DNA from: Escherichia coli
Lineage (GTDB): Bacteria > Pseudomonadota > Gammaproteobacteria > Enterobacterales > Enterobacteriaceae
Reading direction: 5' to 3' (one strand)
Length of the DNA stretch: 64,000 bases
NCBI RefSeq assembly: GCF_048403405.1
Contig: NZ_CP183129.1
Shown here: in pieces, positions 61,601 through 64,000 of the stretch
Layout of the letters: each line of letters begins with the position of its first letter
Numbering within the stretch: position 1 is the stretch's first letter
Position numbers: made by a program

Positions 61601-64000
61601 CTACCAGGCAGTAGAAATGAACGCCAAGGAAGGCTATTTAATTCTCTTTTCAATGGCTGCAATTATTGCTTTTCCTGATGTTTCAGGAGATTTTGTAGCC
61701 ATATAAGACGAAAAAATCATGTCGGTCATTCTTTCATAACTTACTATTTCCCACTTAGCCAATGCATGGGACAGTTTGTAGTTGTCATCAGTTAGTGCCC
61801 TTATGGAATTTTTTAAGTGTTTATTCTCTTCTGTTAATCGCGCAATTTTTGTATCAATTTCATGTGAGCGATCTAATTCCTTAACCTGTTTCTTGAGGGC
61901 AGCTAACCCTGCATATAGTACGCAACAGGATATCCCAAGAGCGAGTACAACTATTTCTAACACACCAACCTCCTTAGTTTTGAGCAGGATACCAGATGAT
62001 AATGTGTAGTTGGAGTAGCGCGGTTGTAATGCAAGCATTTTGTTTTAGCTTTATGCTTGCTTGTATGTGTGTACAGTGTATATAATGCAAGCATACATCA
62101 CAACAAAGGTGCTTGCATTATGACTGAAAAGAAAAGTGGCGAAGGGAAAGCTAAGGGCGGGATCGCTCGCGCAAAGTCGCTGACTAAAGAGCAGCGTTCT
62201 GAAATAGCAAAGAAAGCAGCTGCTGCAAGATGGAAAAGTAAGATTCTCAGGGCAACTCATCGTGGTAACTTTTTAGATGATTTTGGCATTGATGCTGAAT
62301 GTTATGTACTGGATGACGAGTCGAAAACTGTCGTTGTTACGAAAACTGGATTATCTCAGTTGCTAGGGATTGGTGAACATGCCAGGGATTTAGATCAACT
62401 GCTTGGCGCTCAGTATATGAGCAAATACCGAGATCTAGAATTGCAGCGAAAAATGGAAAATCCCTATAAATTTCAACTTACTTCGAAGTCTAAAACCGTT
62501 CATCAAGCGTTAGGTTATGACATTACAGCAATTGTTGATATTGGTAGGGCACTAATAGAAGCCAAAGATAATGACGATCTACCACAATCACGGTTAAAGG
62601 CAGCCGCCGCAGCACAGAGACTTATTAATGCCTCCGCTAAGGCGGGAATTAAGGGGGTTGCGTATGCGCTTGCTGGTTATCGTCCAGAAGTTCAGGCTGT
62701 CATTGACGAGTTCAAAGCGTTTGTTCGTGAAGAGGCTCGTCAATATGAAAAGGAATTTCCAGATGAGCTATACGAGGAGTGGTATCGACTGTACGGCCTG
62801 AATAGGCCAGAGAAAGGACGGCCTATTCGTTTTGGGCAGCTAACCAACATGCAGATATACACCCCGCTAGCAAAGAGTAAAGGTAAAATCCTTGAACAAA
62901 TTAGAGCCAGCCGAGACGAGAACGGAAAACAATCTGATAAGTTGCATCTGTTCCTTTCTGAAATTGGTGTCAAGGCTTTGCGTCAGCATATCGGTAAGCT
63001 TCTTGGTGTCGCAGCGATGAGTGAGACAAGAGAAGAATACGAAAAAGGAATAGAAAAGGTTTTCGGAAGAATGAAACCAGAAATCTAATTATGAAACCCA
63101 CCGTCAGGTGGGTTTTTTGTACAAATCCTTCAGCGTATCAAACACCATCTTCTTAACAAGTTCAGACTGCTCATCAGCGATGCGTTCCGCATCGTCTCGA
63201 TAGCCTGAAATTTTGGATGGCTTTGATACAGCATCAGTCACTATCTGAACTAATTCTGAATTAAGAGAGCGGCCATTGGATTTGGCTCGCTGTTTTAGTT
63301 TTTCCTTTAATTCGTAAGGTAGCCGCAGATTAAATTGCGGGTCATCTCTTCCCATTCTTGATGCCTCACTTTTGTAAGTGGATCGGCATCATATGATCTA
63401 CTGGTTATATCCACAATAAGACCACTGTGGTCTCAATGACGCATTGCCGTAGCCATGCTGCGGCGATTCCTTGTATCTGGAGCAAATTAAATGACAGACA
63501 TTACAGCCAATGTTGTAGTGAGCATGCCTTCGCAACTCTTCACTATGGCGCGTTCTTTTAAAGCCGTAGCCAATGGCAAAATTTATATCGGAAAAATTGA
63601 CACTGACCCGGTAAATCCTGAAAACCAGATTCAGGTTTATGTGGAGAATGAGGATGGTTCTCACGCTCCTGTATCGCAACCAATCATCATTAACGCTGCT
63701 GGTTACCCGGTATATAACGGACAGATTGCCAAGTTCGTAACTGTGCAAGGCCATTCTATGGCTGTTTATGATGCGTATGGTGCGCAGCAGTTTTATTTTC
63801 CTAATGTGCTGAAGTATGACCCTGATCAGTTTCAGAAGAGGTTGGCATCCTTTGATGATGGTGATGGGGATGAATTAGTGTCGGTGAAACAACCATTCCC
63901 CGGAGCAGCAAATCAAACTCAACACCAAAAGAACCAACAAATCATTGATGTTCTTGACTTCGGTGCTCATCCATCGAATGCTGACAATAAAGTAGCTCTG

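What the first reader, a model, noticed from the sequence alone, without database searches (positions are those of the whole stretch)
61634..63088. Divergent gene pair under a four-site operator array
Between the ejection genes and mnt, a 109-aa membrane/coiled-coil protein and a 322-aa protein with a basic N-terminal motif are transcribed divergently from a 94-bp region holding four TAATGCAAGCAT-type half-sites arranged as two inverted-repeat operators that overlap the -35 and -10 of a strong promoter. This is the slot where P22 carries sieA and the immI genes, so a tightly repressed antirepressor-like or exclusion function is plausible.
Basis: partly seen in the sequence, partly recalled or inferred. 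Interest (0 to 1): 0.6.

Follow-up and report, generated by a model that had tools for sequence, protein, structure and literature searches.

The report
Self-repressed P63C phage gene cassette
The four repeated DNA sites are real, but they belong only to the 322-residue gene, a member of a widespread phage family of unknown function (P63C). That protein most likely binds the sites through a short basic N-terminal motif and shuts off its own promoter.

Summary
Four TGCAAGCA-core sites (62027-62120) lie as two 12-14-12 inverted repeats over the -35, the -10/+1 and the ribosome site/ATG of the 322-aa gene. The wider 64-kb window carries the core only at background frequency.

This is the P22 sieA/immI slot, and the 109-aa gene uses the same start context as sieA. 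It is not a SieA homologue.

The array does not belong to the gene pair. It travels with the 322-aa P63C-domain gene (PF10546) into unrelated phage contexts, including the lambda rexAB slot, the 933W nin region and a tail-gene region. The small gene occurs without the array in P22-like phages SE1 and ST160.

Across about 105 homologues the core is 67-fold enriched upstream. Operator type tracks the protein's first ~40 residues, not its body. Recombination joints fall at residue ~40, and the eight homologues examined that lack the motif lack arrays.

Best reading: an autorepressed, probably prophage-expressed accessory gene whose basic two-helix N-terminal motif is an undescribed DNA-binding module. 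The cellular function of the P63C body remains unknown. No solved structure, defence-system model or paper explains it.

The parts
61634..61963 (-). 109-aa ORF with an N-terminal transmembrane segment followed by a coiled coil, sitting in the sieA slot. It is a neighbour of the cassette, not part of it.
   Evidence: ORF and GTG start with AAGGAGG at 61969-61975. Matches phrog_8100, unknown function. Narrow family of 14 clusters, all called hypothetical, 109 aa. No similarity to P22 SieA, E=0.31. Start context identical to P22 sieA. Present without the array in SE1 and ST160.
61976..62026 (.). Conserved junction segment (TTAGTTTTGAGCAGGATACC...). It contains a candidate leftward -10, TATCAT (62001 to 61996 on the minus strand), with no good -35.
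   Evidence: Conserved in all P22-like loci that carry the cassette. The first ~20 nt are shared with the P22 sieA boundary and with 933W upstream of its P63C gene. The promoter assignment is my reading of the sequence only.
62027..62038 (+). Site S1 (TAATGCAAGCAT), upstream of the -35.
   Evidence: Its position about -88 from the ATG and its core are conserved across diverged loci.
62053..62064 (-). Site S2 (ATGCTTGCTTGT on the plus strand), which contains the -35 TTGCTT at 62057-62062.
   Evidence: GCTTGC is invariant in 22 diverged upstream regions.
62081..62086 (+). -10 hexamer TATAAT of the P63C gene promoter.
   Evidence: Sequence. T82, A83, A86 and T87 are at least 90% conserved in alignment A1.
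62083..62094 (+). Site S3 (TAATGCAAGCAT), overlapping the -10 and the predicted transcription start.
62109..62120 (-). Site S4 (GTGCTTGCATTA on the plus strand), overlapping the AAGG ribosome site (62106-62109) and the first base of the ATG.
   Evidence: It always abuts the start codon in homologues.
62120..63088 (+). 322-aa P63C-domain protein gene.
   Evidence: Pfam PF10546, E=1.7e-13, residues 199-286. phrog_2384, unknown function. The near-identical region (99.8% DNA identity) in E. coli MB50 is annotated 'P63C domain-containing protein'. 1682 homologues found.
62141..62239 (+). Codons 8-40: basic two-helix N-terminal motif (EGKAKGGIARAKSLTKEQRSEIAKKAAAARWKS), proposed to be the operator-binding module.
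   Evidence: AF2 predicts helices at 11-20 and 23-39. The motif type tracks the operator type. Recombination joints fall at codon ~40.
62714..62977 (+). Segment encoding the P63C Pfam domain (residues 199-286).
63093..63116 (.). Hairpin terminator shared by the convergent P63C gene and mnt.
   Evidence: RNA fold -16.2 kcal/mol, z=-4.3, followed by a U-run.

Best explanation
The region 62027-63116 is a self-contained mobile cassette. It holds a sigma-70 promoter, four copies of a TGCAAGCA-core operator arranged -> <- -> <-, a P63C-domain gene and a terminator.

The gene product most likely binds the four sites through its basic N-terminal two-helix motif (residues ~8-40). In doing so it occludes the -35 (S2), the -10/+1 (S3) and the ribosome site/ATG region (S4). 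S1 probably adds cooperativity. The result would be tight negative autoregulation.

The cassette behaves like a moron: an accessory gene with its own promoter and terminator, placed in slots that typically hold prophage-expressed genes. The 109-aa gene to its left is an independent occupant of the sieA slot.

Shown here:
- The sites are real, clustered and conserved.
- They are tied to this gene family.
- Operator type follows the N-terminal motif rather than the body of the protein.

Inferred:
- That the protein itself binds the sites.
- That binding represses transcription.
- That the gene is expressed in the lysogen.

What the P63C body does in the cell is not known.
For: 1. Phylogenetic footprint. 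In 22 diverged upstream regions the four cores and the -10 are near-invariant islands, while spacers and flanks differ. Site positions relative to the ATG are fixed at about -88, -65, -33 and -9.

2. The array travels with the gene, not the neighbourhood.
- It is present after a tail-chaperone gene in L028.
- It is present in ST104, where orf23 lies between cI and the N-like gene 24, the lambda rexAB slot.
- 933W has a variant array in its nin region.
- The most frequent neighbour family, a CI-like repressor gene, occurs in only 19 of 78 representative loci, mostly just upstream and co-directional.

3. Enrichment. GCAAGCA occurs at 13.5 per kb in the 136 nt upstream of 105 non-identical homologues, against 0.20 per kb in 573 kb of flanks. 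In 33 of 78 representative loci the upstream window beats 95% of random windows from the same locus for inverted 7-mer repeats.

4. Reciprocal test. Of 120 viral-contig stretches with TGCAAGCA-N13-17-TGCTTGCA, 66 lie directly upstream of a P63C-family ORF. At least three more precede a truncated or disrupted one, and one further stretch with four cores sits at a locus start.

5. Operator classes co-vary with the N-terminal motif.
- GCAAGCA goes with ...E.RSEIA...
- GCACGCA goes with ...SESA... or ...SKSA...
- TGCACGT goes with KMT.EE.K...
- ATCTATC goes with GGKAAAAK...ERAK...
- 50 of the 57 class-A loci with an assignable motif have Ile at the residue aligned with I29. None of the 10 assignable loci in the other classes does.

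6. Two-way dissociation between motif and body.
- L078 and L068 have bodies 84% identical but motifs 42% identical, and they carry different operators. DNA similarity begins exactly at codon ~40.
- ST104 orf23 is only 29% identical to the window protein overall, yet its motif is about 70% identical by my count and it has the same four-site array.
- One E. coli genome (hit H111) matches only the array plus the first 38 codons, at 99%.

7. Eight homologues that lack the motif have no array. They are mostly embedded in operons.

8. The sites sit on the -35, the -10/+1 and the ribosome site, which is the geometry of a repressor.
Against: - No binding or expression data exist.
- The motif is physically adjacent to the operators, so co-inheritance by linkage explains part of the co-variation. 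The loci are also not phylogenetically independent.
- The motif is not a recognised DNA-binding fold. Pfam and NCBIfam see nothing there, and the AF2 confidence over it is only 68-84.
- The same kind of motif occurs at the C-terminus of small ORFs that have no obvious array upstream.
- About a third of the distant homologues show no clear repeat by the strict exact-match test.
- The -35 is weak, and the promoter is not detected by the consensus scan.
Confidence: 0.6

Rival explanations
1. The four sites form a shared bidirectional switch. Binding at S1/S2 would control a leftward promoter for the 109-aa gene in the sieA slot, by repression or class-II-type activation. Binding at S2-S4 would control the P63C gene.
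For: The two genes are divergent and 156 bp apart. P22 PsieA lies within 85 bp of the sieA start (PMC10883804). The equivalent stretch here reaches S1. A good -10 (TATCAT) with no -35 lies so that S1 is centred near -43 of a predicted leftward start. That placement is my reading.
Against: S1 and S2 are conserved where there is no leftward gene at all, for example after terminators of co-directional genes. The small gene exists without the array in SE1 and ST160. No promoter-like hit on either strand falls in the intergenic region.
Confidence: 0.2
2. The sites are operators for a different trans-acting factor, either a host regulator or another prophage protein such as Mnt or the CI repressor. 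The P63C protein would then be only the regulated cargo.
For: Binding by the P63C protein is untested. mnt lies next door. Four GCAAGCA cores lie within 1.5 kb around the prophage cI region.
Against: The array is conserved in phages with different neighbours and immunity regions, and no partner gene is conserved. Operator type changes together with the protein's own N-terminal motif. A separate Mnt-type palindrome, resembling the P22 mnt operator, lies at 63419-63433. The 12-mer is found nowhere else in the window.
Confidence: 0.12
3. The inverted repeats act as nucleic-acid hairpins rather than protein sites. For example, an S3-S4 stem could hide the ribosome site and ATG in read-through transcripts. 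The repeats could also serve as recombination or processing signals.
For: S3-S4 folds at -14.6 kcal/mol (z=-4.3) and would sequester the ribosome site and ATG. S1-S2 folds at -11.9 kcal/mol.
Against: No covariation beyond shuffled controls (57 of 500 shuffles reach the observed score). Core pairs never vary, and one-sided changes break pairing. S1-S3 lie upstream of the predicted start, and the leader from that start is unstructured, z=+1.5. Two independent hairpins would not need the same sequence. Rfam gives nothing near its thresholds.
Confidence: 0.08

Closest known systems
Pfam P63C domain family (PF10546; named after phage Mx8 p63)
   Same: The 322-aa protein matches the domain at residues 199-286, E=1.7e-13. 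It aligns full-length with hundreds of proteins annotated 'P63C domain-containing'.
   Different: The family has no assigned function, and no solved structural relative was found. The papers found mention it only as an annotation. The operator array and the role proposed for the N-terminal motif are not part of the family description. The window subfamily has AYALAGY where distant members have a conserved VDEATGY.
Repressor-plus-operator immunity cassettes of lambdoid phages (cI/OR; P22 immI Mnt and Arc operators)
   Same: There are multiple operator copies over the -35 and -10 of the regulated promoter. The DNA-binding determinant and its sites are exchanged together as one block between phages, and discrete specificity classes exist.
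   Different: There is no helix-turn-helix or ribbon-helix-helix domain. The proposed binder is a ~30-residue basic motif fused to a large body of unknown function. Only self-regulation is evident, and no other target was found in the prophage.
Prophage accessory genes in the lambda rexAB slot and the P22 sieA/sieB slots
   Same: Position. P63C genes lie between cI and N in ST104 and, judging from neighbour families, in about a quarter of representative loci. Here the gene lies next to the sieA slot. Each has its own promoter and terminator.
   Different: No sequence similarity to SieA. No match to any PADLOC defence model. Exclusion activity is untested.
P22 Ant and the Bro-N / KilA-type antirepressors
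   Same: A large accessory gene in the immI region under tight repression. From memory, and not checked here because the paper was unavailable, Iyer et al. 2002 grouped P63C among the domains shuffled with Bro-N and KilA-N.
   Different: No ANT, KilAC or Bro domain was detected. The gene coexists with arc and ant in phage vB_EcoP-611R6, so it does not replace Ant.

Membership tests
Pfam P63C (PF10546) | Significant match to the P63C profile HMM | tested here: met
   E=1.7e-13, residues 199-286, model positions 3-92 of 93. Precomputed PF10546 on all close homologues.
Pfam P63C (PF10546) | Full-length architecture shared with the family: N-terminal basic motif, a 'CYVL' beta-rich domain, then a helical C-terminal part | tested here: met
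   100-sequence alignment down to 25% identity. C61, L64, G132, F213, P214 and G283 are conserved.
P22 SieA superinfection exclusion protein (tested for the 109-aa ORF) | Sequence homology to SieA types A-C | tested here: not met
   BLASTP E=0.31 against P22 SieA. The family of the 109-aa protein holds only 14 clusters, all called hypothetical.
P22 SieA superinfection exclusion protein (tested for the 109-aa ORF) | Conserved cytoplasmic motif FxRYPxEAxxFNK (PMC10883804) | tested here: not met
   The motif is absent from the 109-aa sequence.
P22 SieA superinfection exclusion protein (tested for the 109-aa ORF) | Position directly after gene 16, on the opposite strand, with the sieA translation-start context | tested here: met
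   Same AAGGAGGTTGGTGTG context and the same GTG as P22 sieA.
Ant / KilAC / Bro-N antirepressors | Presence of an ANT, KilA-C, AntA or Bro-N domain | tested here: not met
   The Pfam scan returned only P63C. PHROG hits are families of unknown function.
Mnt/Arc-controlled immI operator | Operator resembles the Mnt or Arc operator and adjoins mnt | tested here: not met
   The four sites bear no resemblance to P22 Omnt (GGTCCACGGTGGACC). A Mnt-type palindrome, AGACCACTGTGGTCT, lies separately at 63419-63433.
Known anti-phage defence systems (PADLOC-DB v2) | Match to a defence-protein model | tested here: not met
   No hit for the 322-aa protein. Only a weak coiled-coil hit to LmuB (E=0.0014) for the small protein.
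Autoregulated repressor-operator cassette | Repeated sites overlapping the gene's own core promoter, conserved across relatives | tested here: met
Autoregulated repressor-operator cassette | Site specificity co-varies with the protein's DNA-binding determinant | tested here: met
   Operator classes follow the N-terminal motif and not the body. Caveat: physical linkage and shared ancestry.
Autoregulated repressor-operator cassette | The protein binds the sites and represses transcription | not testable with these tools
   Needs EMSA or footprinting and reporter assays.
Structured RNA element (Rfam) | Match to an Rfam model, or compensatory base-pair changes | tested here: not met
   All Rfam hits are far below gathering scores. 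No covariation beyond shuffled controls.

The most novel reading that the evidence does not exclude
The ~30-residue basic motif GGxARAxxL(T/S)xExRxxIAxKAAxARW would be a previously unrecognised, portable, sequence-specific DNA-binding module with a simple recognition code. The residue aligned with I29 would track the central base of TGCA-N-GCA. The module would move between phage genes as a cassette together with its four operators. P63C proteins would then form a large class of autorepressed, prophage-expressed effectors occupying rexAB and sieA-type slots, possibly sensors or executors of superinfection exclusion.
Probability: 0.35. Interest if true: 0.75.

Novelty: new variant of a known kind. 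Interest (0 to 1): 0.55.

Why it matters
P63C is a large phage protein family: 1363 clusters at 50% identity. It is present in well-studied phages such as 933W, ST104 and BP-4795. It has no known function, no solved structural relative and essentially no literature.

This work gives the family a concrete handle that can be tested cheaply:
- a defined operator;
- a candidate DNA-binding motif with predicted specificity-changing residues;
- a self-repression model.

The gene's repeated placement in classic prophage-expressed exclusion slots also makes it a reasonable candidate for a new lysogen-protective or regulatory function. For annotation, the conserved array fixes the true start codons, which are currently over-extended in some deposited records.

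Tried and rejected
- **RNA hairpin or riboswitch reading.** Pair counting showed no covariation. Rfam gave only sub-threshold noise. The leader from the predicted start is unstructured.
- **Chance.** Rejected by the clustering and the conservation.
- **Protein family libraries.** PADLOC and NCBIfam gave nothing for the 322-aa protein.
- **Literature.** 'P63C', 'P63C domain', 'PF10546' and the site sequence returned only incidental annotations or primers. Iyer et al. 2002 could not be retrieved.
- **SieA homology of the small protein.** Rejected.
- **Distant-locus search with the 100-sequence alignment.** It failed because no stretch was conserved enough. A 15-sequence sub-alignment worked instead.
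- **Automated 'best 7-mer' motif calling.** It was noisy because of start-codon errors. Defined core classes replaced it.
- **The N-terminal motif on non-P63C proteins as an independent test.** Three such ORFs were found, but none has a clear array upstream, so this was uninformative.

Full report
**Setting.** The window ends in the late and immI region of a P22-like (Lederbergvirus) prophage of E. coli. The order is:
- ejection gene 16 (59773-61614, +);
- a 109-aa ORF (61634-61963, -);
- a 322-aa ORF (62120-63088, +);
- mnt (63104-63355, -);
- the tailspike gene from 63492.

The stretch is 99.8% identical to E. coli strain MB50. The module containing the 322-aa gene occurs in 73 of 5426 complete E. 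coli genomes.

**Checking the observation.** The four sites exist as described:
- S1, 62027-62038, TAATGCAAGCAT.
- S2, 62053-62064, reverse complement ACAAGCAAGCAT.
- S3, 62083-62094, TAATGCAAGCAT.
- S4, 62109-62120, reverse complement TAATGCAAGCAC.

They form two inverted repeats with 12-nt arms and 14-nt spacers, set 18 nt apart. The whole 94 bp also has overall dyad symmetry.

The 12-mer occurs nowhere else in the 64 kb. The 7-mer core GCAAGCA is at background frequency overall, 17 observed against 15.8 expected, yet four copies fall within 86 bp.

S2 contains TTGCTT. Eighteen nt downstream is a perfect TATAAT that overlaps S3. S4 covers the AAGG ribosome site and the ATG. The -35 is weak, and the generic promoter scan did not flag the promoter, so 'strong promoter' is generous.

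The 109-aa reading of the left ORF is supported. It starts at a GTG after AAGGAGG, and its homologues are called at 109 aa. The identical initiation context is used by P22 sieA.

**What the proteins are.**

The 322-aa protein carries a P63C domain (PF10546, E=1.7e-13, residues 199-286).
- It belongs to phrog_2384, unknown function.
- The family is large: 1682 hits at E<=1e-5 and 1363 clusters at 50% identity.
- The family shares one architecture: a basic N-terminal motif, a beta-rich 'CYVL' domain and a helical C-terminal part.
- An AF2 model is confident (pLDDT 86), with two N-terminal helices at residues 11-20 and 23-39.
- It has no meaningful relative among solved structures.
- No defence-system or NCBIfam model matches.
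- The papers found mention the domain only in passing.

The 109-aa protein has one transmembrane segment and then a coiled coil.
- It belongs to a narrow family of hypothetical proteins.
- It is not a SieA homologue (E=0.31).
- It lacks the FxRYPxEAxxFNK motif that defines SieA types (PMC10883804).

**The array belongs to the P63C gene.** I fetched 58 viral-contig loci encoding relatives 52-100% identical.
- Wherever flanks have diverged completely, the four cores and the -10 persist as near-invariant islands.
- Their positions are fixed at about -88, -65, -33 and -9 from the ATG.
- Spacers and upstream sequence differ.

In many loci the divergent small gene is replaced by the terminator of a co-directional gene. 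L028 places the cassette after a tail assembly chaperone gene, next to a superinfection-immunity-like membrane protein gene.

The most frequent neighbour family occurs in only 19 of 78 representative loci. It is a CI-like repressor gene, mostly just upstream and co-directional. CII-like genes on the opposite strand and N-like genes downstream form smaller neighbour families, in five and four loci. Together these point to the lambda rexAB slot.

Phage ST104 shows that arrangement explicitly: cI, then orf23 (P63C), then gene 24. It has the same four-site array, although the protein is only 29% identical to the window protein. Phage 933W carries a homologue in its nin region.

Conversely, the 109-aa gene occurs in SE1 and ST160 without the P63C gene and without the array. 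Phage vB_EcoP-611R6 pairs the cassette with a different small-gene allele, and also has arc and ant.

**Who binds the sites.**

Across 105 non-identical homologues, GCAAGCA is 67-fold enriched in the 136 nt upstream: 13.5 per kb against 0.20 per kb in 573 kb of flanks.

With a strict exact-repeat statistic, 33 of 78 representative loci exceed 95% of random windows from the same locus. About four would be expected by chance.

The reverse test also holds. Of 120 viral-contig stretches containing TGCAAGCA-N13-17-TGCTTGCA, 66 lie directly upstream of a P63C-family ORF. At least three more precede a truncated or disrupted one, and one further stretch with four cores sits at a locus start. The remaining ~50 are isolated two-core matches.

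Distant homologues (about 30% identity) show discrete operator variants. Each variant goes with a distinct version of the N-terminal motif:

| Operator core | N-terminal motif |
|---|---|
| GCAAGCA | E.RSEIA(K/R) |
| GCACGCA | SESA / SKSA |
| TGCACGT | KMT.EE.K |
| ATCTATC | GGKAAAAK...ERAK |
| GCTAAC or GCTATC | further versions |

Ile at the residue aligned with I29 is present in 50 of the 57 GCAAGCA-class loci with an assignable motif. It is present in none of the 10 assignable loci of the other classes.

Operator type follows the motif and not the rest of the protein:
- L078 and L068 have bodies 84% identical but motifs 42% identical, and they carry different operators. DNA similarity starts exactly at codon ~40.
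- ST104 has a 29%-identical protein but a similar motif and the same array.
- One E. coli genome matches only the array plus the first 38 codons, at 99%.
- Eight homologues that lack the motif have no array and are mostly embedded in operons.

The most economical reading is that the operators plus the first ~40 codons form a cognate, exchangeable recognition cassette. The protein would then repress its own promoter.

The caveats are physical linkage, shared ancestry and the complete absence of biochemical data.

**Alternatives.**

*Hairpin function.* This is not supported.
- Core pairs never vary, and one-sided changes break pairing.
- Covariation does not exceed shuffled controls.
- Three of the four sites lie upstream of the predicted transcription start.
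- The leader from that start is unstructured.
- Rfam finds nothing.
- An S3-S4 stem could still silence translation from read-through transcripts. That is speculative.

*A foreign repressor.* This is unlikely, because the contexts vary so much and the operators co-vary with the protein's own motif. A separate Mnt-type palindrome lies between mnt and the tailspike gene.

*Shared control of the 109-aa gene.* This cannot be excluded. A TATCAT without a -35 lies so that S1 would be centred near -43 of a leftward start. However, S1 and S2 are conserved where no leftward gene exists.

**Function and novelty.** The regulatory logic is a familiar kind: an operator array over a promoter, swapped as a block like an immunity region. 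The proposed DNA-binding element and the family it controls are uncharacterised. The genomic slots are rexAB-like, sieA-adjacent and moron positions. They suggest a prophage-expressed accessory role, possibly exclusion. That is inference from position only.

I rate the finding a new variant of a known kind, of moderate interest. It turns a large family of unknown function into something directly testable.

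Noticed in passing
window 63104-63500: This prophage has mnt but no arc or ant. A Mnt-type palindrome, AGACCACTGTGGTCT (63419-63433), lies between mnt and the tailspike start. It differs from P22 Omnt (GGTCCACGGTGGACC). The Mnt N-terminus has Gln where I recall P22 Mnt has His6. Mnt may therefore gate a promoter that reads straight into the tailspike gene.
   Followed up: partly
window 61976-61995; L148 2340-2362; L155 3311-3332: A ~20-nt sequence, TTAGTTTTG(A/T)GCAG(G/A)ATACC, is shared by three places: the left edge of the cassette here, the boundary next to the P22 sieA start, and the region upstream of the 933W P63C gene in the nin region. 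It looks like a recurrent mosaic joint.
   Followed up: partly
L005-L062, about 130-200 nt upstream of the P63C start: The sieA slot is hypervariable. At least eight unrelated 5' coding sequences follow the same AAGGAGGTTGGTGTG start context in P22-like loci that carry the cassette. This is typical of a diversity hot spot for exclusion-type genes.
   Followed up: no
window 35588, 36250, 36305, 37126: Four exact GCAAGCA cores lie within 1.5 kb around the prophage cI region. Two of them are inverted and 55 bp apart, inside the 126-aa ORF downstream of the putative cI. The window-wide count is at background, so this may be chance.
   Followed up: partly
L148 2363-2728 (P22 NC_002371): A 121-codon plus-strand ORF (MKKVNIGNVPK...) between sieA and orf59a is annotated in SE1 as orf64 but not in the P22 reference record. 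The annotated sieA promoter lies inside it.
   Followed up: no
L156 2917-2953; L001 2680-3084; window 62057 and 62038: Start codons are over-extended in deposited annotations. ST104 orf23 is annotated 37 nt upstream of the ATG that abuts S4. The 611R6 small gene is annotated as 134 aa, starting inside S1. The conserved array fixes the true starts.
   Followed up: yes
window 62645-62665 (residues ~176-182): Distant P63C proteins share a near-invariant GI(I/V)ALVDEATGY motif. The window subfamily has GIKGVAYALAGY, which loses the Asp-Glu pair. If that pair is functional, this subfamily may have a changed or lost activity.
   Followed up: no
L119 3468-3716 (-); L137 3466-3765 (-); L124 1087-1575 (+): The same basic motif (...GGKARAxxLTxxxRxxIAKKAAAxRW) occurs at the C-terminus of small ORFs that lie convergent just downstream of P63C genes. 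It also occurs near the N-terminus of an unrelated 162-aa ORF. The motif is therefore portable beyond the P63C family.
   Followed up: partly
L151 1-102; L152 2-142: Two P63C genes that lack the motif directly follow, or overlap, the 3' end of an ORF ending ...EF(S/C)(F/Y)RY(S/N)NR.... From memory this resembles the C-terminus of IS1595-type transposases. That would suggest carriage on, or next to, an insertion sequence.
   Followed up: no
window 61671-61690 (+): A terminator-like hairpin with a T-run lies on the plus strand 57 nt after the gene 16 stop, inside and antisense to the 109-aa ORF. It may limit late-operon read-through into the cassette.
   Followed up: no
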